A stretch of 45,653 nucleotides of DNA, taken from a virus. Position 1 is the stretch's first letter; each line of letters starts with the position of its first letter. This document shows positions 5,977 through 32,391 of this stretch, piece after piece. The stretch lies in IMG/VR virus record IMGVR_UViG_3300042802_000002; one strand, given 5' to 3'. A program made the translations under genes and the position numbers. Under the pieces are notes generated by a model. It did no database searches, was not told the origin of the DNA, and was given only the letters and a program-made list of their open reading frames with translations.

Positions 5977-5990
5977 TTAAATCACCTTTT

Positions 5991-8471: not shown

Positions 8472-8481
8472 TTTAACCTCC

Positions 8482-11670: not shown

Positions 11671-11698
11671 ATATTACTTCATCTTTATATTTATGAGT

Positions 11699-11977
11699 TT
11701 AAATCATATCAAGTAACCTTTTTATATTTTCGCTAGGATTTGAAGAACGCTTATTATCTATATTCCTATAATTACTATCTAAAAGTTTAGTCATTTCTCT
11801 ATCAAAAATAAATTTCATAAATGCCATTTTCTCAGTTTTTAATTTATCGGCAGTATAACCAAAATCTAACTCATTATTTTCTTTTCTTTCTGCTATATAC
11901 ACAATATTTCTAATATCGTCTTTCAAAACTTTCTTTTCGCCTTCATCATTAACTTTTACAATTTGATATTTACTCAT
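11699..11977 (-). CDS. Hypothetical protein
   Basis: 92-aa ORF. Confidence 0.5.
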   Translation of the reverse strand: MSKYQIVKVNDEGEKKVLKDDIRNIVYIAERKENNELDFGYTADKLKTEKMAFMKFIFDREMTKLLDSNYRNIDNKRSSNPSENIKRLLDMI

Positions 11978-13037
11978 TATCTTCCTCCTCTAAAGTTTTC
12001 TCAAAATCTTCATAGACTTCTGCCATTTCCATATCGTCATATTGATTTAATTCTTCTTCTGTCGGTCCAGCGTCCTTATCTCTCAATGAATTTCTAAGTA
12101 TCAAGTATTCTTCTTCATCTAAAGAATTAATACTTTTTGCATTAAAGCTGGATAATAAATTAAACAACATATTTTTCTTTTTCTGATCGTCCCCAATTAA
12201 CTCTTTAATTTCAGCTTCTCTTTCAGTAGTTTCTCTTTTTTCTTTCTTCTTAGGTTTATCTTTTTTTGCTTTTTTCTTCTTCTTAGTCATTTGATAGCGT
12301 TCCATTGTCAGTTTAGCTGCCTGTTTTAAATCATCTTGTTTCGCATTATCGACTAACCATTTCAGATAACCTGTATTAACTTCTTCAAGTTTCTTTCCTT
12401 GAAACTTACCAAACCATAGTACCGTTTTTTCAGGATTTTCAGAGTTCACCTTGCTATTTGTACCTTTAGGCTTACTAGTACCCCTAGAATTATCAATAAT
12501 TACATCTTCTTCTGGTATATCTTTGATTTCCTGTGTATCTGGATCATACCCTGATATTTCTTCTGCTGATGTAATAGATATATTGTAGGCTAATCTAATT
12601 ACCCTGTTAGTTGCTCTTGTTCTAGCCATAGCTTTGAGGTCTTTATCGCTACCGCTAATCATACGGTTACAATCCTGCGGACTTGCTTCCCCATACTCTA
12701 TATACGGCCTGTTATCTGGTGAACTTTCCTTCCACAACAAGGCTTTGTATTCAAAGTGTCTTTTGTTATAATCCATATTGACTGCTTCCAGCTGAATACT
12801 AACTGGTGGATCATCACTTTCGTGTGCATTTCTCTTTAATCCGCTGCTTGTTACATAAGCATTACTTCCTAATACGGTCAAGTCCCCAAAAAACGGGTCT
12901 AATCCATACTGTGCTGCAATATAAGCTAACTGCTGCTTATCCTGGCTGGATAATTTCTGCGGCCATAATCCTTCGCTTTCTCCTTTTTGTACTAATTCTT
13001 TTGATTTATCAGCAACATTCACAACATCATTTGCCAT
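11970..13037 (-). CDS. Putative recombination/DNA-metabolism protein with C-terminal LWFGKFQGKKL (DUF3820-like) motif
   Basis: 355 aa; C-terminal motif resembles the exonuclease-associated FGKYKG domain; N-terminal family not recognised with certainty. Confidence 0.4.
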   Translation of the reverse strand: MANDVVNVADKSKELVQKGESEGLWPQKLSSQDKQQLAYIAAQYGLDPFFGDLTVLGSNAYVTSSGLKRNAHESDDPPVSIQLEAVNMDYNKRHFEYKALLWKESSPDNRPYIEYGEASPQDCNRMISGSDKDLKAMARTRATNRVIRLAYNISITSAEEISGYDPDTQEIKDIPEEDVIIDNSRGTSKPKGTNSKVNSENPEKTVLWFGKFQGKKLEEVNTGYLKWLVDNAKQDDLKQAAKLTMERYQMTKKKKKAKKDKPKKKEKRETTEREAEIKELIGDDQKKKNMLFNLLSSFNAKSINSLDEEEYLILRNSLRDKDAGPTEEELNQYDDMEMAEVYEDFEKTLEEEDNE

Positions 13038-13459: not shown

Positions 13460-14011
13460 CTATACTGTTTTAACCTTAAAACTTTCCCCTCGGTCCACTA
13501 CTTTTAAACCTTCCACAAATTCGCCAGTTTCAGTATTAACTACCCTGCCATCATCAAGTATCTTATAGTTTCCGCTATCCTTAACAATTTTCTTGAGTGT
13601 TCGTTTGTCAACATCTTCCTTCACTCTTACAGCGTCGGGTATCTTCTCTTTGACGGTATCCAGCAATTCATCTTCATACTGCCATTTAGGCCGTCTTTTT
13701 CTAAACTGCAGCTTACCGAACGGTAATGAGTGAGTTTTCATTGCAGGATCTTCTTCTCTTAATTGTTGAGCATACTCAAATAACATATTCTTAAAGTTAT
13801 TAATCTTCTTTTCTAATGAAGAAGTTTCATTCTCCAGCCAATTATTAACCTGGTCTATTTGTCTTTGAGCAAGTGCTTCCTTTTCTTCCACCTGATCCTC
13901 TAATTCCTTAATCTTCTGCAAGGCCCAACAGGCCTTATCGTCCGTGTCAACTTTGAATTTTTCCTGTTCTTCTTCCTCCTGGGCTTCCTTTTTAACCAAT
14001 TCTGCTGTCAT
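13460..14011 (-). CDS. Coiled-coil protein (possibly Gam-like; weak)
   Basis: 183 aa; N-terminal heptad-rich region. Confidence 0.5.
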   Translation of the reverse strand: MTAELVKKEAQEEEEQEKFKVDTDDKACWALQKIKELEDQVEEKEALAQRQIDQVNNWLENETSSLEKKINNFKNMLFEYAQQLREEDPAMKTHSLPFGKLQFRKRRPKWQYEDELLDTVKEKIPDAVRVKEDVDKRTLKKIVKDSGNYKILDDGRVVNTETGEFVEGLKVVDRGESFKVKTV

Positions 14012-16318: not shown

Positions 16319-16497
16319 TTCTTTGCTCCTAACTTTTTTACGGCATCACCACCTATTATTACTACCGCTAAAGTAGTAAATGTATTCTCATCAAATATGC
16401 CTGTTATTTTGCCTATAAAAACGATTAGCAAAAACACTAAGTCTTGCTGAAAATCATTATCCATAAATAAATCTAACCAATCCTTAACTAACTTCAT
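16315..16497 (-). CDS. Holin-like small membrane protein
   Basis: 60 aa; two hydrophobic segments and a charged C-terminus (KKLGAKK); overlaps the endolysin stop. Confidence 0.45.
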   Translation of the reverse strand: MKLVKDWLDLFMDNDFQQDLVFLLIVFIGKITGIFDENTFTTLAVVIIGGDAVKKLGAKK

Positions 16498-16865
16498 CTT
16501 CTATTATCCCACTCTGCTGGCCTGTGCCGTACATCTAAGTGGATAAAAGTATTATATAGTCCAATACCCCTAAAACCTATTTGCTTTGCTATACGCTTGA
16601 TTTCTTCAATCTGTAGAGGAATTGTGTGTAAACTAATATCTACTGCTTTTCCATAAAGATGTTGGCTATTTTTAGCACCATTAACCTGCTTATTTCTTTC
16701 AGGACAGCGATAAGCTGAATTGATAATTAAAGGTACTTCTAATCTATCTCTTAACTGCTGCAGCTTATCTAATAATTCTTCATCTATTCTAGTATGCCTG
16801 TGATCTGGGTGAGTACATTCAAACTCTGACATCTTAAAATTTTTGCTTATCTGAATATCATTCAT
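16494..16865 (-). CDS. Endolysin, peptidase M15 (D-Ala-D-Ala carboxypeptidase-like) family
   Basis: 123 aa; SAYRCPERN ... HLYGKAVD ... IHLDVRH matches the M15 zinc-ligand pattern. Confidence 0.75.
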   Translation of the reverse strand: MNDIQISKNFKMSEFECTHPDHRHTRIDEELLDKLQQLRDRLEVPLIINSAYRCPERNKQVNGAKNSQHLYGKAVDISLHTIPLQIEEIKRIAKQIGFRGIGLYNTFIHLDVRHRPAEWDNRR

Positions 16866-16874
16866 AGTTACCTC

Positions 16875-17243
16875 CTAAATAAATCTAGTCGCTACACCAC
16901 CTAAAAATAATAAAACATATATGATCCAGCGTATATTATCTTTCCAGGTGCTATTACTTTTTTCTTTTGTTTGATTTTCAACTTCTAACCTGGCTAATCT
17001 GGCCTTGTTATTTTCCATTAATCTTCTATCTTCCTGTCTTTTTTCGATTAAGCCGTTATATTTAACCATATTCTTATTCATTTCGTCCATCTTAATGCTG
17101 ACTTCTTCGAATTTAGACATCATAGTTTCAAACAGCTGCTTATTATCATACCAATCACCGTGTTTTAGCCTATCTATTTCTTTTTCGTGCTGCTCTATTT
17201 TTTCTTTATAAGGGCAATCCTGCTTTTCTGTCATTAACATCAC
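16875..17243 (-). CDS. Coiled-coil protein with C-terminal transmembrane anchor (holin or spanin-like candidate)
   Basis: 122 aa; hydrophobic C-terminus WIIYVLLFLGGVATRFI. Confidence 0.45.
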   Translation of the reverse strand: MMLMTEKQDCPYKEKIEQHEKEIDRLKHGDWYDNKQLFETMMSKFEEVSIKMDEMNKNMVKYNGLIEKRQEDRRLMENNKARLARLEVENQTKEKSNSTWKDNIRWIIYVLLFLGGVATRFI

Positions 17244-17245
17244 TC

Positions 17246-20200
17246 CTAATCACTAAGCGGCTCTTTGCCATTATATCTGCGAGCCAAATTAATTTTTTGT
17301 CTTTCTAGTTTATCTACTGTTTCTTTTTTACCCTGGCTTTGTGCGTACTTAATTTGCCTGTTGATATTAGCGAAGTGCCTAATCAGCTTATTTAGTTGTG
17401 ATAAATTCCTTTTAGCTTCCATTATTTCTTTTCGCGAGTACCTTAAATCTTCGCCATATCTCCTTGAATTATTATAATTAGCGACCATTTGAGTATATTT
17501 TTTCTGATCCTGGTACACTTTTGTTACATCTTCATAATATCCAGACTCTGAAATACTTATTAGCCGCTTAACTGCATTAAAAGGTATTATATTACTTAGT
17601 GCTTCTAAAGTGCCGTCAGCATAAGCAATAGAAGGATTAACTATTGCACTACCTCCTAAGTTAAAGAACTCATATAATCCAAATTCTTTAAGTTTCTGGC
17701 CGACATTACCTGTCAGCATAGCTTCCTCTGATATTACATTTCTACCCCGCCAGGTATCGTAAATATTCTCTCCAGATGTTAACCTTTGAACATCAGCTGC
17801 GGCCTGCAATAATGGGTTAAGATTACTTGTATTCCACGGTAATTCAGTCCAGACTGTACCTGCAACATCTCCCCATTCTCCACGGGCTGCATTATAGACA
17901 GCAGATGTAACAGCCTGTCCGATAAAGTCCTGTGGAAGTTGTATAGTTATTGCTTTGCCGTTTGCTTTCCATACAGGAACTACTAAATAAGTTTCTTTTT
18001 TATATTCGCTGACGCCTTCCATTGTTTCTGCTATCTTTTTAGCAAATTCACTATTTGGGAATAATTCGTCAGCTTCTTCTGCACCAAGCTGCAGTAATTT
18101 AGGAAGCAAACTAAATAACGCAAGTTTAAATAAGAATGTGCCTGGATTTTGCCTAAAACTTTCAGCTGCAGCAGTCCAACCTGATTTCCTAATTGTTGAG
18201 AAGATAAATAAGTTATTAGTAATTGAGTGTAAAGCACCTCTTTGCTTGAAGTCAGGAGTACCGACTCTGGTCCTTACTCTGTGTGCTAAATCGCCTTCAG
18301 ATAGATTAGTTCTCTTGCTTAACATTCTGTATCCAGCTATTTGACCTGCCATTTCTGCGACCTGACCGAAGTTGTCTAATCCTTCCCAAGCACTACGGAC
18401 TTTATCGGGTATTAATTTTTGTAATCTGCTGTGTTCTTCCCCGCTTTGTTCGTTATAATCAAAGATTTCAGTTAATAACTGTTGAGTATCATCTTCCATA
18501 TAACTGTCAGAAGGTCTATACATTCTGTCTATGGTTAACATTCTATTTCTTCTCATATATGAAATATCTTCTGATCTCTTATTGTGCCTTACATTATTCC
18601 AGGCTTCTGAAAAAGCCTTCTTGTACTCGTGGGCTAATGCTGGAATATCTTTTATACCAATTTCAGGGTTATTCATAACTGTAGCAAAGAAATCTCGTGG
18701 AATGTTAAAAATCATCCAACGTGGGTTGTGAGATACAATTATCGACTTCATACCCTGGACTATTGATAAAATAGTATTTGTAGCTGCATTAGCCTTGTGT
18801 GGAGTATATTCGTATAGGTCAGCTATATCTTTTTCAACTAAATATCCGTCTAATTTGCCGTTAACTGTAAAAGTTATTAATCCTTCATCAGCGTCTGTAG
18901 AGTCTTTAGGTATTATCTTACCGTATATTTCTTTTGTTGGTGCTTGTCTTATTGACTCTGGGGCTATTTTCTTTAATGCTTTTACTGCAGCCACCTTAGA
19001 CTCGTTAATACGGATAGAACTGATTATACTCATATCTTTAAGCATTGTGGCAACAAGTGGATTACTTATTTTCCTACCTGTACCATATTGCCGCATAATT
19101 ATATCGCCAGTACCTTCGCCAAATTCAGTATTAATATAATCTACTACCTCAAAAGTTACATACTCTTTATTATTTTTAACTTTTTCCATAGCTGCTTCTG
19201 TAAACATATTAGATTTTTCCATTATAGGTATAATTCTTTCCTGTCTTAATTGATAATATTTTTCTGCAGCGTTAACTATTTTTTGATATTTTTCTTCTCC
19301 GTATTTATCTAATAAAGCCTGCTGCATTTCTTCTGCTCTAACTGTATTAACAAAAAGTGGGTTAGCATATTTTCTTCTGTCGCCCAAAACTCTTTTATTA
19401 AATAAGAAAGAGTTAAAATCTAAGAAGTCTATATCATAATTTGATAATCCTTCTATTATCTGGCCTATATTGTAGAGGTAATCTTCTACCTCAGAGGACA
19501 TATAAGCTATTTCCTCCATTTTATTTCTTGCTTCCCTGGATAACTTTCCTTTTTCTCCAGTATCGCTGTATTCTCCCCTAAAATATTTGTAGAGGGCTGA
19601 ATTTTTATCAATAAAACTTTCTATTAGCCAATCAAAACCACTTTTTACTCCCCGTTCTCTACGCTGTATCTTCTTTTTAGTCTGTTCTACACCGTCAACC
19701 ATACCTTCTTGTAAATTGTCAAAGGTTTTGTTTATCATTTCAGATCTATTTTCCATTAAGTGCCTTACAGTATTATATGATTTTTTTACTGCTGGCTTTT
19801 CAGATATACTTTTTTGGATAAACTGACTAAATAATGGTGCTTCCTGCTGCAGCATTTCAGGATCCAAAAAGAATACACTCATAGCGTCAGCGTAAAGTTC
19901 CTCTGGGCTAAAGCGGTATTGTCTGTATTTTTTATTGCTTGTATCAAACGGTTTCCATTTTTGAGATAACCTCTGCAGCTCTTTTTTTAGTCTGGGACCT
20001 AACTTTTTACTATCTCTGATAGCGTCTAAGGTTTCGTCTTTTTCTCCTTTGTAAATAAGACTCATATTATCCATTAATTCGCCTTCATCTAACTCACTTC
20101 TAGGAATAAAATCTATTAAGTGGCCTAATTCGTGCGACATTGTCTGTGCTGCAAACTCTGGATCAACTTCTAATACTCTGACCTCTACATAGTTTTTAGT

Positions 20201-23200
20201 AAATTTAGTTTTAAATTCTACTTCGCCAATTTCAGGATCATTTTCTATTCTTGTTCTAATTTCCTGTATTCTTCTGTCATATTGCTTATTTGGTATCTTT
20301 TCCTGGTGGATTGTAGGTCCGATAAATATATCAGGATTAAGGCCTATACTGCCGTCTTTAGGCATATAATAACCCAATGTACCTGTATTACTTAACTTTT
20401 TGATAATACCAGGATATTTGCCCTCTGATAAGGCTAGAATTATATCTAAGAGTTCAGGCATTTCTATTTTTTTATCGTTAAGAGTAAACTTTGCTCTAGC
20501 ATACTTATTCTTCTGGCTAAATTCTACAGCGTTTCTGCTCATTTTAACATTCTTGCCGTTAATATTTATATTTTTAGGCTCTTTACCGAATAAAGTTTTG
20601 TTAGTTTCTATACTTTTTTTAACATTATTATTTTCGTTGCCTACTTCATATCTTATTATTTTGCCCCAGCGTGGTGATATATTACCTTCTTTTATTAAAT
20701 CGTTAACCTTAGATTTTATTGTTTCTACTGGAGTTTTATCAAAACTTTCTTTTAAGTTTTTAGCAGCTTCTTTAATTGTTCTGCCGACTGACATTTTAGC
20801 ACCGCTTTTACCTTCTGTTATAATCCAATAGTTTGGAGGTGTAGTTGTCTTTTTGTTTTTGATTTTACCTACCTGATCTTTAATCCTATATCTAAAAAGG
20901 TCCATATCTTCTGTGCCAGGTATAGATATTGGTTTAGCTTTTAAAACCTGCACAAATTCGCCTTCGTTATCGAATATATAATAGTTGTTAGGCTCTGCTA
21001 ACTGACTTGTATCAATATCAGGCTTACCAGTTTTAACAGTTTCTCCTTTAAATACCCCTGATTGATCTGTTCCTCCTAAAGCCATAATAATATCAGAAAT
21101 AACAAGCGGTCCTCTAGGTGTAACTACCTTGCCTTTTTCTCTTTCACTATATATTGGAGGTTTATTTTCAATTTCAATATATCCTCCAGGAGTATTAATT
21201 TTAATAGTTTGATTAAAGTTTTTAGACTTTTCGATTAAGTCTTTAATCATATCTTTTCTCTCAGTATAACTTCCCATAATATCCCGTGTTTTGCTTCTTT
21301 TAACTATTTTTAGATTATCAAATAATTCATCTGAATTTATATCGCCATTTATATGCTGCCATAATCTATATTCTAAAGTATCTTGCCTAGTTGGACTTGA
21401 TTTACCTTCGATTTCTTCCATTCTTTCCTGTGCTTTTTCTTGTGCAAATTCTTCTACTTGTTCAGATTGATATTTTTCTAATCTTTTTTCTATTTCATCA
21501 ATAGCTTTATTATATTCTCGACCTATATCATCTACAGACGCTTGCGAATTAGGTAAATCAAATTCATCTTTTGAAATTTCTAATCCAGCTTCCCTAGCTT
21601 TATTAAATATTTCTTCAAATTCCGTGGTTTGTTTATCATATAAATCTTGTTTAAATTGCTGATTTTCTGTAGTTTCTACATTATTAAATCTTTCTTTATA
21701 GAAGTTATAAGTAGGCTCATTTAACATTTCTACTTCTCTAGCTTTATCTAAAATTTGATTAACTTTATCTTTAGATATATTACCTTCTTCAATATCAATA
21801 GTAATTCTATCTAAATCACCTTTAACTAAATCATAGATAGCTGTTATAATTTCTCGATCAGCTATTTCCTGTCCCCATTCAGTTAGTGCAGCACTACCAG
21901 TTTTCCTATTTTCATTTTCTGTTTTTCTTTTTTGCTTATCTTCTCTTTTTATTGCATTACTAATTGCTGTTTCTCTTTTTCTACTAATAATTTTTTGTCT
22001 TTCTTCTATTTCAGCTTCTTGTCTTGCTTTTTCAGCCGCTTTATTAATATCTTTAGTAGTAACAACTTTCCCTTTAGTTTCAGAAGTCTTTTTAACATAG
22101 TTATATGCTTTGCGGCCAGCTTCTTTAATCTGTTTTTTATCTTTTGGAGTAAGTTCTATTTCATTTTCTTGCTGTTCTCCTACAACTTCACCTTCTTGTT
22201 TTTTTATTTTTCTACGAATAGATTTTTTAGCTTTTTCCTGCCATTCTACCATAGCTTTTCTTTTGTTTTGTGCCGCTTTGGCTCTTTTATCGTTCTGACG
22301 AGTATTGAAATTAGCAGGCCCAGCTATCATAGGAGAACTTACTCTGCTTTGAGAAGATAAATAATCATTTAATTTTTTAATATAATTTTCTTTATATTTC
22401 TGTAATTCATCAGTTAATACTTTTCTTTGTGTTTCATTTCCGACAATCTCATTTAATTCATTATATAAATCTTTTATATGGTTAATATATGATCTTTTAA
22501 GTAAATCGGCCCTGTCTTTCGGGGTGTGGCTAGTCCCTCTGAAAGCTCTAATTAACAATTCATTATCTAAATCATTTGGAGAAATTTCTATTGGTATATC
22601 AGAAGTATCTATGTCCTCCGCTTTAACCTTTTTAGTAGGCTCTGAAAAAGCTCTCTTTTCTAAATATTCATATCCTGCTTTTTCACCAAATTTATTAGCC
22701 ACTTTATTAGCTGCTCTAATTAAAGCATTAAAACTTTCTTTTTCTCTCCAAAATTCTATTTCTTTTTTACTAAAACCTTCATCTTGATATTTTTTATCTA
22801 AAAAGTATTTTTCATATTTATTTAATTCATATTCTTGTTGTCCTTCATCTTCAACAATACCTTCCTGTTGCTGTTGGCCCTCTTGGATAGGTTGGCCTTC
22901 AATAGCTGCTCTAGTTTTTCTGGCTTCATTGATAGCGTCATCTATCCTCTGATAAGTCCAGGTGTTACCGTTCGTATCTATAACATCAAATTTAGCACCA
23001 TTATGAACTACATAAGATTGTAATTCTTCTGGAATGCCAGGAGTATTCTCTTGCGAAGCCATTTCTCTAAAATTATCTATTTGCTCGTTGCTCTGTTGTA
23101 TATATTGGCCTGTTTCTTCTACTGTTGTATCTGGCTGTGTATTTAGACCTTCATCAGTTTGATTTTCATTTTCTATAGTATTATCCACATTATTTGGCTG

Positions 23201-25069
23201 CTCAATTGGAGTTTGAGCGACATCTCCCTGCTGCTGCGGTTGTGGTGTATAATTTTGTCTAGCTTCTACTAACTGCTTTCTTAAATCTGATAAAACATTT
23301 AGCGATTTTTGTCGAACGGTATCTACATCATCTGCAGCTGTAGGCATATCATATTGACTTAAATCTACCTGGCCGCCATACTGATTAATTCTTCCTACTA
23401 TATCATTAATCATTTTCTGACGGCTGCTAAGTAAATTCTGTGCTGCCTGTGGTTGATTTTCAGCTATTTCTGCCTGCTGCACCTGTTCTCTTGTTGCTGT
23501 TTCAAATGGAGTAACAGTTGATAGATCATATCCGTTGTTAGCAAGTACGGTAAACAATTCTTCCATACTTTCAGCAGTCATAGTACCCTGTCGCTGGTTG
23601 CCCTGGAATACATCAACTAAAATATTATCATTCATATTTCTTACAATAGCATAATTATTGTTATCTATATTAACTGTAAAAGTGTTTAAATCTTGCTGGT
23701 TATTGATTAAGTTTTCTAAAATTCTTTGTTTAGCAACTGCTGCAGCTTTTTGTTCAGCCATTGTTCCCTGAAAACCTTGGAAAGCATTTTGGGTAGCTTC
23801 TCCACTTTGTTGTCTTTGCCTTTCCATTTCTTCTTGTTGCTGCATTTCAGTCTTTTTTTGGTTAAGCTGTCTGCTAATTTTTTCTATCCTTCTTTGTTCT
23901 TTTTGATTTCTTTCATACCGTGCTTCTCTTTTTAAATCTTCCATCATTCTTTCCGCTTTGATTATTTGATTAATGTCGTATCTTAAATTTTGAGCATTGT
24001 TTTGTCTATAATCTCCTACGGAAGAAAGAATAGCACCTGTAGCAATAGCACCTAATCCAGCGTTAGCAACTAAAGAAGTGAATTCGTCTGCATTAAATTG
24101 TTTTCCTTTAATTATTACATCAGAAATATAGTTTGTTGCCTCTGTACCCATTTCCTCGCCAGCTTCTGATAATCCACCTTTAGCACCTGATTTAAGCCAG
24201 TTTGCAAGACCCCACTCTATACCTTTTTGCATTTGGTCGCCAGCTATTTTATTAGTTCTCACAATATCATCTATCATAGGGAGTGTTACTAAACTTTCCC
24301 AAATCACTTCGGAAGTACCTTTTACACCTGCTGATAGTAACTCTTGTTGGTCTGATAGTTCAGGACCACCTTCTGTTTCTCTATATTCGCCACCAGCAGC
24401 TGATAATCCAATAACTGCTTTGGGTAGGGCTTGCGATAGTACATTAGAAGTACCTAACATACTACCTGCTGTGCTTGTAGCACCTAAACCCTGTGCTGCT
24501 GTACCTGCAAAACCGCCCATCATAGCAAGTAATATATTAGGAGCAGTCTGTGCTGTTACGCTAACTAGCTGCTTGCCAAAGTCCATAAATCTGCCTTCTT
24601 TTAGACTTTCTATCATATTATTACCCAACTGCTTACTTTCCATACTCTTGCTATCAAAAATGGTTTCTGCAGCTTGATTAGAAGCGTCAGAATAGCTGTC
24701 TAACCCTTCTTCTATAAGATTAAACCCTGGTATCTTAAAAGCGTCGCTGCTGTCAACTTTCATTTGTTCATTACCTGTTAATTCTGCAAAAGCATTTTGA
24801 GGTTGTGCTGCAGCTGAATAAACGAATTTACCCAGCCATCTAGCACCATTTGCTATATTACCAAATAATCTAGCTGATCCTCCTGCGAAATCTTTGGCAG
24901 TATCAGTAAATATGTTGCCGTCATTATACTGCGGCTGAGGTTGATTAACTGGCTGGCTGATATTTTGTTCTGTATTCATCTGCATATCAGGAAAAGGTAT
25001 TGCTTTAACATTTATATTGTTTTTTGGTTTTTCTTCTTCCATACCTGGAAAAGGTATTGCTTTAGCCAT
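17246..25069 (-). CDS. Giant virion-associated protein (2,607 aa) with HExxH motif; candidate internal/ejection or tail protein
   Basis: Uninterrupted 7,824-nt ORF; duplicated N-terminal KAIPFP(G/D)M motif; Gly/Ala-rich hydrophobic stretches; long Q/E/K-rich regions; HELGH encoded at 20120..20134. Confidence 0.8.
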   Translation of the reverse strand: MAKAIPFPGMEEEKPKNNINVKAIPFPDMQMNTEQNISQPVNQPQPQYNDGNIFTDTAKDFAGGSARLFGNIANGARWLGKFVYSAAAQPQNAFAELTGNEQMKVDSSDAFKIPGFNLIEEGLDSYSDASNQAAETIFDSKSMESKQLGNNMIESLKEGRFMDFGKQLVSVTAQTAPNILLAMMGGFAGTAAQGLGATSTAGSMLGTSNVLSQALPKAVIGLSAAGGEYRETEGGPELSDQQELLSAGVKGTSEVIWESLVTLPMIDDIVRTNKIAGDQMQKGIEWGLANWLKSGAKGGLSEAGEEMGTEATNYISDVIIKGKQFNADEFTSLVANAGLGAIATGAILSSVGDYRQNNAQNLRYDINQIIKAERMMEDLKREARYERNQKEQRRIEKISRQLNQKKTEMQQQEEMERQRQQSGEATQNAFQGFQGTMAEQKAAAVAKQRILENLINNQQDLNTFTVNIDNNNYAIVRNMNDNILVDVFQGNQRQGTMTAESMEELFTVLANNGYDLSTVTPFETATREQVQQAEIAENQPQAAQNLLSSRQKMINDIVGRINQYGGQVDLSQYDMPTAADDVDTVRQKSLNVLSDLRKQLVEARQNYTPQPQQQGDVAQTPIEQPNNVDNTIENENQTDEGLNTQPDTTVEETGQYIQQSNEQIDNFREMASQENTPGIPEELQSYVVHNGAKFDVIDTNGNTWTYQRIDDAINEARKTRAAIEGQPIQEGQQQQEGIVEDEGQQEYELNKYEKYFLDKKYQDEGFSKKEIEFWREKESFNALIRAANKVANKFGEKAGYEYLEKRAFSEPTKKVKAEDIDTSDIPIEISPNDLDNELLIRAFRGTSHTPKDRADLLKRSYINHIKDLYNELNEIVGNETQRKVLTDELQKYKENYIKKLNDYLSSQSRVSSPMIAGPANFNTRQNDKRAKAAQNKRKAMVEWQEKAKKSIRRKIKKQEGEVVGEQQENEIELTPKDKKQIKEAGRKAYNYVKKTSETKGKVVTTKDINKAAEKARQEAEIEERQKIISRKRETAISNAIKREDKQKRKTENENRKTGSAALTEWGQEIADREIITAIYDLVKGDLDRITIDIEEGNISKDKVNQILDKAREVEMLNEPTYNFYKERFNNVETTENQQFKQDLYDKQTTEFEEIFNKAREAGLEISKDEFDLPNSQASVDDIGREYNKAIDEIEKRLEKYQSEQVEEFAQEKAQERMEEIEGKSSPTRQDTLEYRLWQHINGDINSDELFDNLKIVKRSKTRDIMGSYTERKDMIKDLIEKSKNFNQTIKINTPGGYIEIENKPPIYSEREKGKVVTPRGPLVISDIIMALGGTDQSGVFKGETVKTGKPDIDTSQLAEPNNYYIFDNEGEFVQVLKAKPISIPGTEDMDLFRYRIKDQVGKIKNKKTTTPPNYWIITEGKSGAKMSVGRTIKEAAKNLKESFDKTPVETIKSKVNDLIKEGNISPRWGKIIRYEVGNENNNVKKSIETNKTLFGKEPKNININGKNVKMSRNAVEFSQKNKYARAKFTLNDKKIEMPELLDIILALSEGKYPGIIKKLSNTGTLGYYMPKDGSIGLNPDIFIGPTIHQEKIPNKQYDRRIQEIRTRIENDPEIGEVEFKTKFTKNYVEVRVLEVDPEFAAQTMSHELGHLIDFIPRSELDEGELMDNMSLIYKGEKDETLDAIRDSKKLGPRLKKELQRLSQKWKPFDTSNKKYRQYRFSPEELYADAMSVFFLDPEMLQQEAPLFSQFIQKSISEKPAVKKSYNTVRHLMENRSEMINKTFDNLQEGMVDGVEQTKKKIQRRERGVKSGFDWLIESFIDKNSALYKYFRGEYSDTGEKGKLSREARNKMEEIAYMSSEVEDYLYNIGQIIEGLSNYDIDFLDFNSFLFNKRVLGDRRKYANPLFVNTVRAEEMQQALLDKYGEEKYQKIVNAAEKYYQLRQERIIPIMEKSNMFTEAAMEKVKNNKEYVTFEVVDYINTEFGEGTGDIIMRQYGTGRKISNPLVATMLKDMSIISSIRINESKVAAVKALKKIAPESIRQAPTKEIYGKIIPKDSTDADEGLITFTVNGKLDGYLVEKDIADLYEYTPHKANAATNTILSIVQGMKSIIVSHNPRWMIFNIPRDFFATVMNNPEIGIKDIPALAHEYKKAFSEAWNNVRHNKRSEDISYMRRNRMLTIDRMYRPSDSYMEDDTQQLLTEIFDYNEQSGEEHSRLQKLIPDKVRSAWEGLDNFGQVAEMAGQIAGYRMLSKRTNLSEGDLAHRVRTRVGTPDFKQRGALHSITNNLFIFSTIRKSGWTAAAESFRQNPGTFLFKLALFSLLPKLLQLGAEEADELFPNSEFAKKIAETMEGVSEYKKETYLVVPVWKANGKAITIQLPQDFIGQAVTSAVYNAARGEWGDVAGTVWTELPWNTSNLNPLLQAAADVQRLTSGENIYDTWRGRNVISEEAMLTGNVGQKLKEFGLYEFFNLGGSAIVNPSIAYADGTLEALSNIIPFNAVKRLISISESGYYEDVTKVYQDQKKYTQMVANYNNSRRYGEDLRYSRKEIMEAKRNLSQLNKLIRHFANINRQIKYAQSQGKKETVDKLERQKINLARRYNGKEPLSD

Positions 25070-26674
25070 TTAATCCACCCCATTATTACTTAGGTAATTA
25101 ATCATTTCTTCTATAGTAATATTATTTGTATTCTCAAAATCACTTACAAATTGTTCATTATTTCTATTAGCTTTTAAATTTCTTAATAATTCTTCTTCTG
25201 TCATATTAAAGGTATTTTTATAAGCGTCAACAATCGCTTGTTCTGTTAAATTGCCTGCTTTATCATTAAGATAACTATTATATTGCTGATTTATACTGCT
25301 GTCAGTTAATCCAGGTGTTATTGAAGGCTCATCAGTTAATAAATTAAAGACTCCATTCCAAAAACCGCCGGTTTCTTCTCCTCCGCCACCGCCACCACCG
25401 CCTTGTGGTTGTACGAAGGTATCGTGATATTGATATTGGTATCCCATTTCTTCATCGCCAATAGCCTGAACTAATTGGCCATCTTTATTAACATAAGGAA
25501 TAGTAGCGTCCCGCATTAAAAATCCAGTATCAGGGTTTCTTCTTATTGGGCCTTCTTTATCAAAATTAACGATAGGCCATTGGCTTATATCCACACTACC
25601 TGCACCTGGTCCGCCGCCTGGACTGCCGCCGCCATTCATTGCTCTTATTAATGCGGCATAATCGCTTCCATATTTCAATGGTATTTGTCCTTCTACTCCA
25701 AAAGGAGCACCATTAATCATAGGACCATAATCTTGTCCTTGAGGCTGATTAAATTTCCTGTAGTTTAAAGCTGTATTTAAAATACCCATTAATTTATTAG
25801 CGTCATCAATTGGTACTTCACCGCCTGGAAGCCCGAGCTCGCCTAAATTAATTAATCTTTCCTGTTCAGGTTGCATTTGTTCCATATAAGTTCTTACCAT
25901 TTGTGCTGTTATATCATCTGCTGTAGTTTCTCTAGCTGCATTATAATTAGCAACTTCCCCTTCTAAATTATAATTTTCGTCCAAAGCAGCTCGTGCAGCT
26001 AAAAATTCTATTGGATTATTTATATTTTCATAAAAATTTGGTTCTTCTTCTGGCTGTGCAAATATCTCATTTTGTATATAGCTTGCTCTTTCATCAGGAT
26101 TAACAAATTCTTCTGGTACATCAACATAATTCGACAAAAAGTCGCCATATTCTTGAGATACTAAATTTTGTGCAAATTCGTTACCATCAAAAGCAGCTTG
26201 TGTCCAGCGATCATTCAAAAATTTAGTTTTCATATCAGGTTGTTCCTGCATAAAAGCTGAAAGGAAAGGATTATTAGTTAAATCTTCGCCGTATGCTTCA
26301 CTAGCACCAGCCATAATGTTACCAAACTCATTTTCGTCCCACGCCCCGCTGCTTAAAGCCTGTACTGCTGTGTTTAAAAACTGACCTTTGTTCATACCTA
26401 AATAAGTTGGATCTTCTTTACCAAAAAACATTTCAGTAGGAGTTGTACCTTCCTGTGTATCTACATATTGACCGTACTTATCTACAAATTCCTGCTGTGC
26501 TGCAGGAGTACCAATCTGTCTAGCTCGACTATAAGCCTGCATAGCAAAAGGATCTTGAAATACATCATAACTACCACTTTTTTTAGCAGCCCAATTTGAT
26601 ACCCTCTGCATACCACCTGCTTGATTAAACCCCTGCATAAAACCTGTTAAAAAATCACTACCTTTTCTAGCCAT
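25070..26674 (-). CDS. Virion structural protein with poly-Gly linkers
   Basis: 534 aa; GGGGGGGG and GGGSPGGGPGAG tracts; ATG abuts the giant gene. Confidence 0.65.
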   Translation of the reverse strand: MARKGSDFLTGFMQGFNQAGGMQRVSNWAAKKSGSYDVFQDPFAMQAYSRARQIGTPAAQQEFVDKYGQYVDTQEGTTPTEMFFGKEDPTYLGMNKGQFLNTAVQALSSGAWDENEFGNIMAGASEAYGEDLTNNPFLSAFMQEQPDMKTKFLNDRWTQAAFDGNEFAQNLVSQEYGDFLSNYVDVPEEFVNPDERASYIQNEIFAQPEEEPNFYENINNPIEFLAARAALDENYNLEGEVANYNAARETTADDITAQMVRTYMEQMQPEQERLINLGELGLPGGEVPIDDANKLMGILNTALNYRKFNQPQGQDYGPMINGAPFGVEGQIPLKYGSDYAALIRAMNGGGSPGGGPGAGSVDISQWPIVNFDKEGPIRRNPDTGFLMRDATIPYVNKDGQLVQAIGDEEMGYQYQYHDTFVQPQGGGGGGGGEETGGFWNGVFNLLTDEPSITPGLTDSSINQQYNSYLNDKAGNLTEQAIVDAYKNTFNMTEEELLRNLKANRNNEQFVSDFENTNNITIEEMINYLSNNGVD

Positions 26675-26686
26675 ATGCTCACCTCC

Positions 26687-27277
26687 TTAGCCGAATAAGG
26701 CTTTTTTAGCCATCGACAAAGTCGCAGAATTATTCATAAAATTATTACCTGTATTATTATAAAACCCAGTTAATTTTTGTTCATTTTGAAAATCGTTTTG
26801 TGCTAGATTATTCCAATTATAATTACCCCATTGGAAATTATTATACTTTTTATTATATTCATTGTTTTTCTTATTAATATATTGATCGTATTCTGGATTA
26901 GCAGCCTGTCTTTGATAAGTATTGTATTTCTGTCCTATACTCATAACGTCCCTTATAAAAGGATTAGGATTTTCTGCTATTTTATAGCTTTCTGTAATTG
27001 ATTTAGAAGGTGCATTTTCTAAAATATTTTGTTTATCATTTGCATAATTTAAAGTTGGTGTGTTTGATGAATAACGATTACTACTTCCACTTTCCCCTTT
27101 ATGACTAAAAACATTATTTGTACTTGTTGGTGTGTTTGATGAATAGCGATTACTGCTTCCACTTCTGTTGCTTTTACTATAACTGTTATTTGCAGTATCA
27201 TTTCTACTATTACCACTATTATAATTTGTTCTGTCTATAGTCGAGCCTCCATAGCCAAAACCACTTCCTAAGCCCAT
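26687..27277 (-). CDS. Low-complexity N/S/Y-rich protein with internal tandem repeat
   Basis: 196 aa; repeated SGSSNRYSSNTPT units. Confidence 0.55.
   Translation of the reverse strand: MGLGSGFGYGGSTIDRTNYNSGNSRNDTANNSYSKSNRSGSSNRYSSNTPTSTNNVFSHKGESGSSNRYSSNTPTLNYANDKQNILENAPSKSITESYKIAENPNPFIRDVMSIGQKYNTYQRQAANPEYDQYINKKNNEYNKKYNNFQWGNYNWNNLAQNDFQNEQKLTGFYNNTGNNFMNNSATLSMAKKALFG
27054..27197. repeat. 72-nt tandem duplication inside the 26687..27277 CDS
   Basis: GTTGGTGTGTTTGATGAATA occurs at 27054 and again at 27126, giving two adjacent similar units. Confidence 0.6.
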
Positions 27278-27288
27278 AATACACCTCC

Positions 27289-27738
27289 TTATCCTGTTAG
27301 CCAGTTAGCAATCATATTAGAACCGCCTGGGCTGCCTAAAAATCCACCTGCCATTGTTCCTATTGTACTCCAAAACGGATCAGGTTGATTATACTGCTGC
27401 AATTCGTGAGTATATTGCTGATATGCTTCTGCATAATTGCTATTTCTTAAATTCTGTGCATATCTTGATTTTTGTGTCTGATAGTCGTTTTCCATATCAG
27501 TCATAGCGTCCTGTTTTAAATAATCCCCTGGTGCTTGACCGTAAAAACCTTTAGACACCATATTCCTATTAATATCATTTATTACTTGTTCTCTGTTATC
27601 CTGGTAAGGTTGTCTTAAAGCGTCCTCTGCTTGTTTTAATGCTTCATCATAAGACATTTTTTGTGGTGCTTTAGGCTCGCTGCCACCGCCACTCAATGCA
27701 CTACCCAACAACGCCCCTCCTACTAATGCACCTAACAT
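27289..27738 (-). CDS. Hypothetical virion protein (Gly-rich termini)
   Basis: 149-aa ORF. Confidence 0.55.
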   Translation of the reverse strand: MLGALVGGALLGSALSGGGSEPKAPQKMSYDEALKQAEDALRQPYQDNREQVINDINRNMVSKGFYGQAPGDYLKQDAMTDMENDYQTQKSRYAQNLRNSNYAEAYQQYTHELQQYNQPDPFWSTIGTMAGGFLGSPGGSNMIANWLTG

Positions 27739-27750
27739 AATATCCCTCCT

Positions 27751-28086
27751 TTAAGCGTTCTCTAATGCCGTTATTCTAGTTTCTAAATCATCTATCTGCT
27801 GCTGTAAACTTGTTATATCAGTATTACTGGCTGATCCGCTGTGAGGATTACTTTTATCCTCGTGAGTGTCAGTATAACTTTTAGCGGCTGTTTCTGCACT
27901 ATCTGCTTTTGCTTGTGCAGCTTGTGGTGTTTCTGCACCTATAGAAGAAGGAGTAATAGTATCATTACCTCCAGCTGAATGAGTTTCAGCGTGTGGTGCT
28001 GGTTTTTCTGAACTCTGTATAGTTTCCTGCAGCTGCATATCTGCTCTTTTATCTCTAGCCCTTGAAATTCGTCTAGCTTTAGGCAT
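27751..28086 (-). CDS. Hypothetical protein with C-terminal coiled coil
   Basis: 111 aa; QQQIDDLETRITALENA. Confidence 0.55.
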   Translation of the reverse strand: MPKARRISRARDKRADMQLQETIQSSEKPAPHAETHSAGGNDTITPSSIGAETPQAAQAKADSAETAAKSYTDTHEDKSNPHSGSASNTDITSLQQQIDDLETRITALENA

Positions 28087-30549: not shown

Positions 30550-32391
30550 TTATGCTGGGTTTAATGAAAATGTAAAATCTAAATATAATCTAAAAGTATT
30601 TATTTTTTCTAATTTAGGAGTAAATGTTATTCTAAAAGCTGAGTTTCCATTACTATCTTTAAAAATTATTTCACCTATACCATCAGTAATATTTAACTGG
30701 TCTGTATTAAAACCGACTGTAAAACTTCGTTCCAAACTATCTGCAACATACGAACTTGGTGTTACTTCATAAGGTACTACATACCCTTCTGAATTCCCAA
30801 TAACTACAGCGTCTAATGATAAATCACTATCGGCGTTAGATGTTCCTCCAGCTGCACTAGCGTTACCAGATACCCCAAAATAAGGCATTAAGGAACGCTT
30901 GTTAACTATCCCCGCAAAACTCATATTGCCTATAAATATTTTATAATCAATATTAGTAGCACCATCTCTACCACCACCAGTAATTGTACCCGAATATACA
31001 CCAGTAGGGTTTTGTGCTTTAATAGTCCATTCAAATTCTAGTTGATGATAACTTTCTTTAACTATAGTTGTATCTAAAACTTGTCGTGCTACAGCCGCAT
31101 TATAATAAGGGCCCAAATCAGAAGCGTCAACAAAGACTTCATTTATATTACCAGTCCCAACGCCTGGCTCTACTATCCATTTAGCCGTTATTTTCTTTTC
31201 GGTTATTAAATCAATAGGCGATTTATAAACTTTAAAAGAATTAGAATTTTCTGTAGCTCCAAAAAATCTTCCGCCAGAAGAAAATTCAATAGAATTAATA
31301 GAAGAATTATTTATTTCATTTATCAAACTACCTGTCCCTATTTCCCAAATTTTAATTCCTTCGCTAGTGCCACAAAATAAAAATTTATTATTTGGAGAAT
31401 ATTTAACAGCGTTACCGTTAGAATAAAGTTGAAAATCATAAATTATATTGCCAGTATCATATTCCCAAATCTTTGCAGTTTGGTCATTACTTATTGTCGC
31501 TATATAATTCCCATCTGCCGACCAATCAATAGAATTTATATCATTTGTATGTGCTGTGAAATCAGTTAAAACATTACCAGAACTAACTTCAATAACTTTT
31601 GCAGTATCATCAATCCCACCTGTTGCTATATAAATATCATCAGGACTAAAACAACCTGAATTAACATTCCCTGAATGACCTTGATAATCTAAAATTATAT
31701 TACCTGTAGAAACTTCCCAAACCTTTACACCTTCGCCAGCACCCCCACTAACAACTTTTGTACCATCTGAATTAAATCTAGCAAAATAACTATAATAAGT
31801 ATGTCCTGTAAATTCTCTAATTATATTGCCAGTATCATATTCCCAAACAATTACTTCATTACCTTGTCCCGCACTTACTATATAAAGACCATCAGGACTA
31901 AAATCCAAACTATTAGCCCAAAATTGGTGTCCTGTAAAAGTATTAATTAAAGTGTATGTGCTTGTTTCATAAACCTTTACAGAATAATCTTCGCTTGCTA
32001 CAGCAAAATAAGCACCATCTGGGCTAAAAGCGATTGCTGTCAAATTATCTGTGCCTAATGTTTCATCTAAATATTTAGTACCATAAGGTACTTCTCCTAA
32101 AGTATCAAATTCTTGTACCATACTATCTTTATTTACTGTTGCTAAAGATGTACCTTGTAAACCTGTTTGCGTTATATCAGCAGGGGCAGTTCCATCTCCC
32201 AAATGTAAAACATCTAATATATCGTTACTTAACAACGGAGTCCCGTATGAAAAAAAATTATTTAAATAACCATAAAGCAAAGTATTCTTTTTCTCGCCTT
32301 CTTGTTCTACATTTCCGTTTCTAGTGTCGATTAATTTATATTTTATTTTGCCCTCAACATTTGTTTGTATTTTAGTATTATTATTTTTCAT
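30550..32391 (-). CDS. WD40-repeat (beta-propeller) virion protein
   Basis: 613 aa; about six tandem ~40-aa repeats of the form GH ... FSPDG ... [VA]K[VI]WE. Confidence 0.8.
   Translation of the reverse strand: MKNNNTKIQTNVEGKIKYKLIDTRNGNVEQEGEKKNTLLYGYLNNFFSYGTPLLSNDILDVLHLGDGTAPADITQTGLQGTSLATVNKDSMVQEFDTLGEVPYGTKYLDETLGTDNLTAIAFSPDGAYFAVASEDYSVKVYETSTYTLINTFTGHQFWANSLDFSPDGLYIVSAGQGNEVIVWEYDTGNIIREFTGHTYYSYFARFNSDGTKVVSGGAGEGVKVWEVSTGNIILDYQGHSGNVNSGCFSPDDIYIATGGIDDTAKVIEVSSGNVLTDFTAHTNDINSIDWSADGNYIATISNDQTAKIWEYDTGNIIYDFQLYSNGNAVKYSPNNKFLFCGTSEGIKIWEIGTGSLINEINNSSINSIEFSSGGRFFGATENSNSFKVYKSPIDLITEKKITAKWIVEPGVGTGNINEVFVDASDLGPYYNAAVARQVLDTTIVKESYHQLEFEWTIKAQNPTGVYSGTITGGGRDGATNIDYKIFIGNMSFAGIVNKRSLMPYFGVSGNASAAGGTSNADSDLSLDAVVIGNSEGYVVPYEVTPSSYVADSLERSFTVGFNTDQLNITDGIGEIIFKDSNGNSAFRITFTPKLEKINTFRLYLDFTFSLNPA

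What the first reader, a model, noticed from the sequence alone, without database searches (positions are those of the whole stretch)
17246..25069. Giant 2,607-aa protein occupying about 17% of the genome, with an HExxH metallopeptidase-like motif
A single uninterrupted ORF sits at the end of the virion block. It has a duplicated N-terminal KAIPFP(G/D)M motif, Gly/Ala-rich hydrophobic segments, long helical Q/E/K-rich regions and an HELGHLIDF motif (20120..20134). This pattern suggests an internal/ejection or tail-associated multidomain protein that may cross or remodel the host envelope. Neither a giant protein of this size in a 45-kb phage nor its domain composition can be explained from sequence alone.
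Basis: partly seen in the sequence, partly recalled or inferred. Interest (0 to 1): 0.65.

Follow-up and report, generated by a model that had tools for sequence, protein, structure and literature searches.

The report
Giant virion-delivered polyvalent phage protein
The 2,607-residue gene is real and is a divergent member of a large, already described class of giant "polyvalent" proteins that short-tailed phages pack into the capsid and probably eject into the host with the DNA, so it is ordinary for its class though poorly understood.

Summary
An uninterrupted 2,607-aa ORF lies at 17246..25069 on the minus strand. It takes 17% of a complete circular ~45.5-kb podovirus genome and sits between the virion genes and the lysis genes.

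It is neither an oddity nor an artefact. Its last ~1,080 residues form a conserved C-terminal module. A profile of this module finds 6,685 protein clusters, always at the C-terminus of 1,100-4,000-aa proteins. In IMG/VR contigs of 32-68 kb such genes take a median 16% of the contig.

The module contains three parts:
- a long helical region;
- the LPD38 region, with a conserved hydrophobic helix.

Profile or fold matches link it to 933W L0134 (phi24B gp47 is the giant LPD38 protein of a related Stx phage), Bcep22 gp75 and PTXU04 gp25. The phi24B, Bcep22-like (JC1 gp69) and PTXU04 proteins are virion-associated or essential in published work.

Near-identical relatives swap in-frame cassettes in the middle of the protein. 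Family-wide, the N-terminal motif is duplicated and cysteine is almost absent.

Verdict: a new, divergent member of the phage-type polyvalent/ejection proteins. Interest is moderate to low.

The parts
17246..25069 (-). Whole gene, 2,607 aa, no cysteine. Its start codon directly abuts the stop codon of the upstream 534-aa gene.
25040..25063 (-). N-terminal motif copy 1, KAIPFPGM (aa 3-10)
24983..25006 (-). N-terminal motif copy 2, KAIPFPDM (aa 22-29). A duplicated N-terminal 8-mer is a family-wide trait.
23990..25069 (-). N-terminal leader region, aa 1-360, acidic (pI 4.5). It has Gly/Ala-rich hydrophobic segments at aa 168-197 (24479..24568) and aa 329-352 (24014..24085). It is conserved only in close relatives.
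22832..23989 (-). aa 361-746: charged and Q-rich helical stretch plus a small unassigned region. Relatives carry a ~215-aa insertion at about aa 631 (window 23176).
22202..22831 (-). Cassette M1, aa 747-956: basic, confidently helical module. It is present here and absent from the relatives in L009, L010 and L012. An 8-nt direct repeat AACAAGAA flanks it. Homologous modules occur in unrelated giant proteins P0012, P0013 and P0034. It is not in Pfam.
20597..22201 (-). Cassette M2, aa 957-1491: 35% identical to part of a Halanaerobiales LPD38 protein (P0009). Relatives P0006/P0007 (L007, L008) have other content in its place, including a ddrB-ParB domain in P0006/P0007. Function unknown; the structure model is poor.
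17258..20497 (-). Conserved C-terminal module ('chassis'), aa 1525-2604, about 1,050 profile positions
19850..20392 (-). Zincin-like metallopeptidase domain, about aa 1560-1740. Key residues: HELGH 1646-1650 (20120..20134), Asp1653, and Glu1724 in the ELYAD helix (19898..19900).
18173..19849 (-). Helical middle of the chassis, aa 1741-2299. It aligns with 933W L0134 residues 1902-2431 and Bacillus phage Pony gp20 residues 929-1420.
17540..18172 (-). LPD38-equivalent region, about aa 2300-2510, with a conserved hydrophobic helix at aa 2310-2331 (18077..18142)
25070..27738 (-). Three upstream same-strand genes of 534, 196 and 149 aa. They are cysteine-free and Gly-rich or low-complexity. They are positional counterparts of JC1 gp67/gp68 and are candidate co-ejected proteins.
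16494..17243 (-). Downstream lysis genes: a 122-aa protein with a C-terminal transmembrane segment (16875..17243) and an M15 peptidase endolysin (16494..16865)

Best explanation
The gene encodes a phage-type polyvalent protein: a giant virion-packaged protein that a short-tailed phage, probably of Halanaerobium, delivers into the cell with its DNA.

Shown here:
- The protein is modular. It has an N-terminal leader with a duplicated 8-residue motif and hydrophobic Gly/Ala-rich helices.
- The central region consists of in-frame cassettes that differ between phages 92-98% identical elsewhere.
- The last ~1,080 residues form a conserved module made of an intact gluzincin peptidase, a long helical region and the LPD38 region with a conserved hydrophobic helix.

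Inferred:
- The conserved ends are the vehicle. They get the protein into the procapsid and then out through the portal and tail channel at infection.
- The near-total absence of cysteine across the family suggests passage in an unfolded or extended state.
- The hydrophobic helices, together with the three small upstream proteins, help bridge the envelope.
- The middle cassettes are exchangeable cargo. In relatives the cargo is a methylase plus SNF2 helicase, RadC, ParB, ART or RelA/SpoT. Here it is two modules of unknown function.
- The built-in peptidase most likely cuts the polyprotein, or host proteins, after delivery rather than digesting peptidoglycan.
For: Family:
- A profile of the C-terminal module finds 6,685 clusters at E<=1e-3 and 1,988 at E<=1e-30. 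All of the top 150 span almost the whole module, at the C-terminus of 1,100-3,900-aa proteins.
- Long members carry an Eco57I-type methylase plus an SNF2 helicase (7 of 15), RadC, DNA methylases, DnaJ and LPD38. Others carry ddrB-ParB, ART-PolyVal and Zeta toxin.
- BFVD gives 49 near-full-length fold matches. The named ones include 'Large polyvalent protein associated domain' proteins such as that of Escherichia phage PTXU04 at E 4.7e-17.

Link to experiments:
- The profile hits 933W L0134 at E 1.4e-21, Bcep22 gp75 at E 1.9e-13 and Bacillus phage Pony gp20 at E 9e-23.
- phi24B gp47 is abundant in virions but invisible in cryo-EM.
- JC1 gp69 gave 51 unique peptides in purified virions, with gene order 196 aa, 510 aa, giant gene, then (after two small reverse-strand genes) lysis, close to the order here.
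- Knockdown of PTXU04 gp25 abolishes plating.

Peptidase:
- The motif HE[IL]GHxxD[FY] is conserved.
- H146, E147, H150, D153 and E224 of the model are invariant in 27 sequences.
- The model has pLDDT 70 and pTM 0.62.

Cassettes: junctions lie at aa ~631, 746, 957, 1137 and 1491, and an 8-nt repeat flanks M1.

Cysteine:
- This protein has none (P = 3e-6 given 0.49% in the other virion genes).
- 153 of 164 family members have none.
- Bcep22 gp75 (4,602 aa) also has none. So does N4 vRNAP (3,500 aa), which is virion-packaged (PMC5512222) and, from general knowledge not checked here, injected into the host.

Hydrophobic helix: it sits at relative position 0.7 of the module in 91 of 138 members.

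Context: podovirus virion genes upstream, including an SU10-type adaptor, and lysis genes downstream.
Against: - Nothing was measured on this phage. Packaging, ejection and processing are all inferred from relatives that share only the C-terminal module at about 20-28% identity or at profile level.
- Pfam, PHROGs and NCBIfam give no hit to the protein itself. The LPD38 assignment is therefore transitive.
- Only one enzymatic domain is recognised here, so 'polyvalent' in the strict sense of several disparate activities is not shown for this member.
- The two cargo modules have no inferred function, and their model is poor (pLDDT 60).
- PTXU04 gp25 is essential, which fits a structural ejection role at least as well as an effector-carrier role.
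Confidence: 0.7

Rival explanations
1. It is purely a structural ejection protein. It extends the short tail into a trans-envelope conduit, and the peptidase opens the cell wall, as proposed for phi24B gp47. The central region is only a spacer, not cargo.
For: - The phi24B authors make this proposal.
- PTXU04 gp25 is essential.
- The protein has hydrophobic helices and a long helical content.
- No recognisable effector domain is present in this member.
- Its position matches that of the T7 gp14-16 and Bcep22 internal proteins.
Against: - The same module carries methylase-helicase, RadC, ParB, ART, RelA/SpoT and Zeta-toxin domains in relatives. Those are cytoplasmic effectors, not spacers.
- Near-identical phages swap or delete whole cassettes in frame. 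That is hard to reconcile with a length-critical conduit.
- The peptidase fold matches protein endopeptidases (lethal factor, PPEP), not peptidoglycan peptidases.
Confidence: 0.17
2. It is an external tail component, such as a tail fibre, a tail-tip or a tape-measure-like protein.
For: It is the last gene of the virion block, next to tail-fibre-like genes. It is a very long helical protein.
Against: - The phage is a podovirus by gene content, with no tail tube or tape-measure context.
- phi24B gp47, the giant LPD38 protein of a related Stx phage, is not seen in the tail reconstruction although abundant in virions.
- It has no beta-rich fibre or receptor-binding domain. The fold matches are to C-terminal parts of polyvalent proteins.
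Confidence: 0.05
3. It is a functional equivalent of a known giant virion enzyme: the N4-type virion RNA polymerase or the DarB-type antirestriction methylase-helicase.
For: - It is a giant virion-block gene preceded by ~150-aa and ~500-650-aa genes, as in N4.
- Bcep22 gp75, annotated 'DarB-like', shares the C-terminal module.
- It is cysteine-free like N4 vRNAP.
Against: - There are no vRNAP, methylase or helicase domains.
- There is no BLAST, phmmer or HMM hit to N4 gp50.
- hhalign of the module against nine N4-like C-terminal regions gives probability <1%.
Confidence: 0.03
4. It is an assembly or gene-calling artefact that fuses separate genes.
For: None beyond the unusual length.
Against: - The identical ORF is on 6 contigs.
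- Uninterrupted orthologues occur in at least five other samples.
- The family-wide architecture has the module at the C-terminus of one long ORF.
- All cassette differences are in frame.
Confidence: 0.01

Closest known systems
Phage-type polyvalent proteins with a C-terminal LPD38 domain (Iyer, Burroughs, Anand, de Souza and Aravind 2017, PMC5512222)
   Same: - It is a giant late-gene product.
- It carries the phage-type zincin with an Asp three residues after HExxH, as that paper describes.
- It has an LPD38-equivalent region near the C-terminus.
- Relatives carry the typical hub domains: SNF2-methylase, ParB, ART and RadC.
   Different: - Pfam's own LPD38 and peptidase models do not score this protein.
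- Only one enzymatic domain is recognisable.
- The conserved unit found here is about 1,050 residues, far larger than the 189-position LPD38 model.
- RadC, which the paper lists as specific to conjugative elements, occurs in phage-borne relatives of this module.
phi24B gp47 (2,811 aa), the giant LPD38 protein of a Stx phage related to 933W; 933W L0134 (2,806 aa) was the sequence tested here
   Same: - It is the last virion gene of a podovirus, preceded by small virion genes.
- The profile hits 933W L0134 at residues 1902-2052 and 2186-2431, at E 1.4e-21, followed by LPD38.
- phi24B gp47 is found in virions and proposed to be an ejection protein.
   Different: - 933W L0134 has LPD5, LPD1 and MuF_C domains, and its HExxH motifs lie elsewhere.
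- There is no detectable similarity outside the C-terminal half of the module.
- The host is a Gammaproteobacterium.
Bcep22 gp75 / JC1 gp69 / Ralstonia GP4 'DarB-like antirestriction protein' (4,500-4,600 aa)
   Same: - The gene order matches: 196 aa, ~510-532 aa, giant gene, then lysis genes nearby.
- It is virion-associated by mass spectrometry.
- LPD38 lies near the C-terminus, and the profile hits at E 1.9e-13.
- Bcep22 gp75 has zero cysteines.
   Different: Those proteins carry lytic transglycosylase, methylase, helicase and LPD3 domains that are absent here, and they are nearly twice as long.
Escherichia phage PTXU04 gp25 (2,198-aa putative polyvalent protein)
   Same: Its C-terminal part matches the model over about 1,240 alignment columns (Foldseek E 4.7e-17, TM 0.49). 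It is the only relative with a loss-of-function phenotype: knockdown abolishes plating.
   Different: The relationship was tested only at the level of predicted fold. Its N-terminal content was not compared.
T7 gp14/gp15/gp16 ejectosome and N4 gp50 virion RNA polymerase
   Same: It works like these in outline. They are internal proteins encoded at the end of the virion block and ejected ahead of or with the DNA. N4 gp50 is also giant and cysteine-free, and has an HExxH region.
   Different: - There is no sequence or profile similarity to N4 gp50.
- There is no transglycosylase or RNA polymerase domain.
- This is a functional analogy only, not membership.

Membership tests
Phage-type polyvalent proteins (Iyer et al. 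2017) | Very large single polypeptide encoded among phage late (virion) genes | tested here: met
   It is 2,607 aa and lies between the tail genes and the lysis genes of a podovirus genome.
Phage-type polyvalent proteins (Iyer et al. 2017) | Zincin-like metallopeptidase hub domain: HExxH helix plus a downstream Glu helix. The phage-type variant has an Asp three residues after the motif. | tested here: met
Phage-type polyvalent proteins (Iyer et al. 2017) | Several domains of unrelated biochemical activity in one polypeptide | tested here: inconclusive
   Only the peptidase is recognised. Cassettes M1 and M2 are shared with other giant proteins but have no assigned activity. Relatives with the same module do combine methylase, helicase, RadC, ParB and ART domains.
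LPD38 (PF18857) proteins | Match to the LPD38 model near the C-terminus | tested here: inconclusive
   Pfam LPD38 does not hit this protein at E<=1. However, the profile built from it and five homologues hits Pfam-annotated LPD38 proteins (E 7.6e-10 to 4.2e-7 against the full database; 2e-15 to 4e-18 in the local re-scoring) and also 933W L0134. The LPD38 region maps to aa ~2300-2510. P0010, a full-length homologue, scores LPD38 weakly.
Virion-packaged ejection proteins | Present inside the virion and released into the host at infection | not testable with these tools
   This is known only for relatives. Indirect support comes from zero cysteines and the conserved gene order.
N4-like virion RNA polymerase | vRNAP catalytic domains, and homology of the C-terminal encapsidation region | tested here: not met
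   Pfam finds vRNAP domains in N4 gp50 but not in this protein. The HMM and hhalign comparisons are negative.
DarB-type antirestriction proteins | N6-adenine methyltransferase plus helicase domains | tested here: not met
   No such domains are found in this protein. They are present in longer relatives.
T7 gp16-type internal core protein | N-terminal lytic transglycosylase and the gp16 fold | tested here: not met

The most novel reading that the evidence does not exclude
The conserved ends may together form a general phage protein-delivery vehicle, with any cassette placed between them packaged and injected. The ends are a short N-terminal peptide repeated about 30 residues later and the ~1,050-residue peptidase-helical-LPD38 module. 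On this reading the duplicated N-terminal peptide acts as the packaging or ejection signal (or as the peptidase's cleavage site), comparable to a secretion signal. The cysteine-free composition would be the signature of passage through the tail channel. The cassette swaps seen among 92-98% identical Halanaerobium phages would then be effector exchange in an ongoing arms race.
Probability: 0.3. Interest if true: 0.65.

Novelty: new member of a known kind. Interest (0 to 1): 0.35.

Why it matters
For annotation: three standard libraries leave this 297-kDa protein blank, yet it can be assigned to the polyvalent/ejection class. The profile built here would also label thousands of giant 'hypothetical' genes in 30-70-kb phage genomes.

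For biology, three family-wide regularities are cheap, testable handles on an open question raised for phi24B gp47, namely how such a huge protein is packaged and ejected:
- the duplicated N-terminal peptide;
- the near absence of cysteine;
- the fixed hydrophobic helix.

I did not find these regularities in the papers read. The natural cassette series in near-identical phages shows where foreign cargo can be inserted in frame. That matters if these proteins are to be used to deliver payloads into bacteria.

Tried and rejected
- Library scans of the whole protein: Pfam, PHROGs and NCBIfam gave nothing usable. The same was true for the middle segment alone.
- phmmer of the protein, and profiles A1 and A5, against PDB sequences found no relatives.
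- tblastn against 50,697 phage records found only Pelagibacter phage Baldr, 22% identity over aa 1694-2497.
- N4 hypothesis: the similar gene sizes and order prompted BLAST/phmmer, an HMM of 185 family members, and hhalign against an alignment of nine N4-like C-terminal regions. All were negative. The best hhalign alignment merely superposes the two HExxH motifs at probability 0.26%.
- Internal repeats: self-BLAST found none.
- The N-terminal 370 residues have no detectable homologues outside close relatives.
- The three upstream genes are conserved only in close relatives, so the synteny with JC1 and 933W rests on size and order only.
- The cargo model (aa 747-1525) was too poor (pLDDT 60) to justify a fold search.
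Full report
**1. The observation**

The ORF at 17246..25069 is real, but it lies on the minus strand. The plus strand is full of stops. It encodes 2,607 aa, 296.8 kDa.

The window carries a 127-bp exact terminal repeat. It is therefore a complete circular assembly of about 45.5 kb, and the gene takes 17% of it.

- KAIPFPGM and KAIPFPDM at aa 3 and 22.
- HELGH at aa 1646, window 20120..20134.
- Hydrophobic Gly/Ala-rich segments at aa 168-197 and 329-352, plus a third hydrophobic helix at aa 2310-2331.
- K/E/Q-rich stretches.

With only 16 histidines in the protein, an HExxH is expected 0.009 times by chance.

The identical protein occurs on six contigs. Uninterrupted orthologues occur in several other samples. 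It is not an assembly fusion.

**2. Context**

All genes from about 45.6 kb down to 5 kb run on the minus strand. In order they are:
- terminase, portal, a 404-aa scaffold-sized gene and the major capsid protein;
- tail-fibre-like genes and a protein with the SU10 podovirus adaptor domain;
- a conserved 497-aa virion protein;
- small genes of 111, 149, 196 and 534 aa;
- the giant gene;
- a 122-aa protein with a C-terminal transmembrane segment and an M15 endolysin.

The giant gene starts directly after the stop codon of the 534-aa gene.

A 92%-identical fragment sits in a Halanaerobium MAG. One distant homologue comes from a Halanaerobiales MAG. With 34% GC this makes Halanaerobium the likely host. 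The evidence is weak, because the MAG contig is only 1.4 kb.

**3. What the protein is made of**

Pfam, PHROGs and NCBIfam are silent on the protein itself. Homology searches show that it is modular.

*The C-terminal module.*
- The last ~1,080 residues (aa 1525-2604) form a conserved unit.
- A six-sequence profile of this unit found 6,685 clusters at E<=1e-3 and 1,988 at E<=1e-30 among 1.84 billion representatives.
- The top 150 all align over nearly the full 1,056 positions, at the C-terminus of proteins of 1,100-3,900 aa.
- In IMG/VR, two peptide patterns alone recovered 213 loci.
- In 38 contigs of 32-68 kb the corresponding ORF has a median of 2,282 aa and takes a median 16% of the contig.
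- A giant gene of this size in a 45-kb phage is therefore normal for this group.

*The peptidase.*
- All homologues keep HE[IL]GHxxD[FY].
- In a 27-sequence alignment with 17% mean column identity, H146, E147, G149, H150, D153 and E224 are invariant. In protein numbering these are 1646, 1647, 1649, 1650, 1653 and 1724.
- The AlphaFold model of aa 1501-2607 has pLDDT 70.3 and pTM 0.62. It places HELGH in a helix that follows three strands and a helix, and places Glu1724 in a later helix.
- These structural relatives cut proteins. They are not peptidoglycan hydrolases.

*The rest of the module.*
- It is helical and has no PDB relative by sequence or fold.
- The region around aa 2300-2510 corresponds to Pfam LPD38. 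The profile hits Pfam-annotated LPD38 proteins, and in 933W L0134 the LPD38 match follows directly after the profile-matched part.
- A hydrophobic 19-mer sits at relative position 0.7 of the module in 91 of 138 members. Here it is aa 2310-2331.

*The middle of the protein varies even among close relatives.*
- Against six relatives that are 92-98% identical at the DNA level in shared parts, the junctions lie at aa ~631, 746, 957, 1137 and 1491.
- Whole cassettes are present, absent or replaced, always in frame.
- Cassette M1 (aa 747-956) is flanked by the 8-nt direct repeat AACAAGAA. It recurs in unrelated giant proteins next to a methyltransferase or an ART domain.
- In P0006 and P0007 a ddrB-ParB domain lies in the replaced region.
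- Neither cassette of this phage matches a Pfam family or a solved structure by sequence. The structure model of the cassette region is mostly helical and poor outside M1.

**4. Link to known proteins**

Long family members carry the classic polyvalent repertoire:
- Eco57I-type methylase plus SNF2 helicase (7 of 15);
- RadC, DNA methylases, DnaJ and DnaN-like domains.

A Foldseek search of BFVD gave 49 near-full-length matches at E<=1e-3. The named ones are 'Large polyvalent protein associated domain' proteins, including Escherichia phage PTXU04 and Ralstonia phage Alix. Others carry LT_GEWL, RelA/SpoT or methylase domains.

A 185-sequence HMM of the module hits three proteins of cultivated phages:
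- 933W L0134 at E 1.4e-21;
- Bcep22 gp75 at E 1.9e-13;
- Bacillus phage Pony gp20 at E 9e-23. This is 1,679 aa in a 39.8-kb genome, followed by a holin and an L-Ala-D-Glu peptidase.

The 933W-type C-terminus alone occurs in 355 GenBank phage records.

Published data on relatives:
- phi24B gp47 (2,811 aa) is the giant LPD38 protein of a related Stx phage. It is abundant in virions but invisible in the cryo-EM map, and is proposed to be an ejection protein.
- JC1 gp69 is virion-associated with 51 unique peptides. It follows 196-aa and 510-aa virion proteins, as the giant gene does here.
- Knockdown of PTXU04 gp25 abolishes plating.

**5. Family-wide regularities**

I did not find these in the papers read.

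- In 147 non-redundant members, an 8-mer starting within the first 12 residues recurs downstream, at a median spacing of about 30 residues.
- The repeat scores p<=0.01 in 64-68 members and p<=0.05 in 95-96.
- At internal control offsets the counts are 0-3 and 4-13.
- The motif sequence differs between lineages: IYDDLIP, DPAFEARR, IFDFSDY and KAIPFP.

(b) Cysteine is almost absent.
- This protein has none. P = 3e-6 given 0.49% in the other virion genes.
- Its four upstream neighbours have none.
- 153 of 164 family members have none, and none has more than two.
- Bcep22 gp75 (4,602 aa) has none.
- N4 vRNAP (3,500 aa) also has none. It is virion-packaged (PMC5512222) and, from general knowledge not checked here, injected into the host.

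(c) The hydrophobic helix in the LPD38 region keeps a fixed position.

**6. Mechanism**

Shown:
- the modular anatomy;
- an intact zincin;
- a conserved C-terminal module;
- exchangeable in-frame cassettes;
- the virion-gene context.

Inferred from relatives: the protein is packaged in the capsid and leaves with the DNA.

Inferred from composition: it passes through the portal and tail channel unfolded.

Inferred from the hydrophobic helices and the small Gly-rich upstream proteins: it helps to span the envelope.

The peptidase, being part of the conserved unit and resembling protein endopeptidases, most likely processes the polyprotein or host proteins, as Iyer et al. proposed. The alternative is the phi24B authors' proposal of cell-wall digestion.

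I put 0.7 on 'virion-delivered polyvalent/ejection protein'. Confidence in any single mechanistic step is much lower.

**7. Rivals**

- A purely structural conduit is not excluded (0.17). It is partly compatible with the main reading.
- An external tail protein is unlikely (0.05).
- N4-type polymerase or DarB-type enzyme is rejected on domain content and negative profile comparisons.
- An assembly artefact is rejected.

**8. Verdict**

This is a new, strongly divergent member of a known kind. The feature is typical of a very large family, not an anomaly. Interest is 0.35.

Noticed in passing
window 30550-32391 (-): A 613-aa tail-fibre-like protein carries a strong WD40 beta-propeller (Pfam WD40 E 4.9e-42, residues ~114-392). 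It also has a C-terminal match to a PHROG tail-fibre family. This is an unusual domain for a phage receptor-binding protein.
   Followed up: no
window 2115-2564 (+): A stand-alone RadC-like JAB domain gene (E 1.7e-38) lies on the opposite strand. In distant homologues (P0011, P0021) the same domain is fused inside the giant protein.
   Followed up: no
window 1-127 and 45527-45653: There is a 127-bp exact terminal direct repeat. The window is a circular, complete genome of about 45.5 kb.
   Followed up: yes
window 25070-28086 (-): The four genes upstream of the giant gene (534, 196, 149 and 111 aa) contain no cysteine, like the giant protein. The 149-aa protein has Gly-rich hydrophobic ends. 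The 196-aa protein is N/S-rich low complexity with GSSNRYSSNTPT repeated twice.
   Followed up: partly
window 20598, 21658, 22200, 22832, 23176 (junctions inside the giant gene); loci L007-L012: These are recurrent in-frame recombination junctions between this phage and relatives that are 92-98% identical elsewhere. Cassette M1 is flanked by the 8-nt direct repeat AACAAGAA. GC falls to 0.30 across about 20-23 kb, roughly the cassette region and the start of the C-terminal module.
   Followed up: partly
L006 (QBLP01000407.1, Halanaerobium sp. MAG) and P0009 (Halanaerobiales MAG): A 92%-identical 1.4-kb fragment of the giant gene is binned with a Halanaerobium MAG. This is a host lead that fits the 34% GC, but it rests on a very short contig.
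   Followed up: partly
window 43745-43833 (-): A tRNA-Tyr (anticodon GTA) lies near the start of the late operon and overlaps mechanically listed ORFs.
   Followed up: no
window 5991-6443, 7445-7975, 10050-10619, 13460-14011 (all -): The replication and recombination block contains four recognisable genes. They are an SSB with a DDFDVPF tail, a small radical-SAM/4Fe-4S protein, a G39P-like helicase loader and a Mu Gam-like end-protection protein. No integrase was seen among the ten genes from 1648-13037 that were scanned.
   Followed up: no
L002 (phage N4 gp50, N-terminus) versus family members P0083, P0137, P0172: N4 vRNAP begins MSVFDRLAGF. This resembles the leader motifs MS[IV][YF]D[DR][LF] of many family members, although no homology to N4 could be shown anywhere else. 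It is a lead only.
   Followed up: no
L001 (Pelagibacter phage Baldr, 8002-14991): The only GenBank phage hit by tblastn is a 2,329-aa hypothetical protein of a 39.5-kb pelagiphage. It sits in the position of T7 gp16, after tail tubular proteins A and B and before the tail fibre, and has the same HELGHLIDF motif. Pfam gives it no domain.
   Followed up: partly
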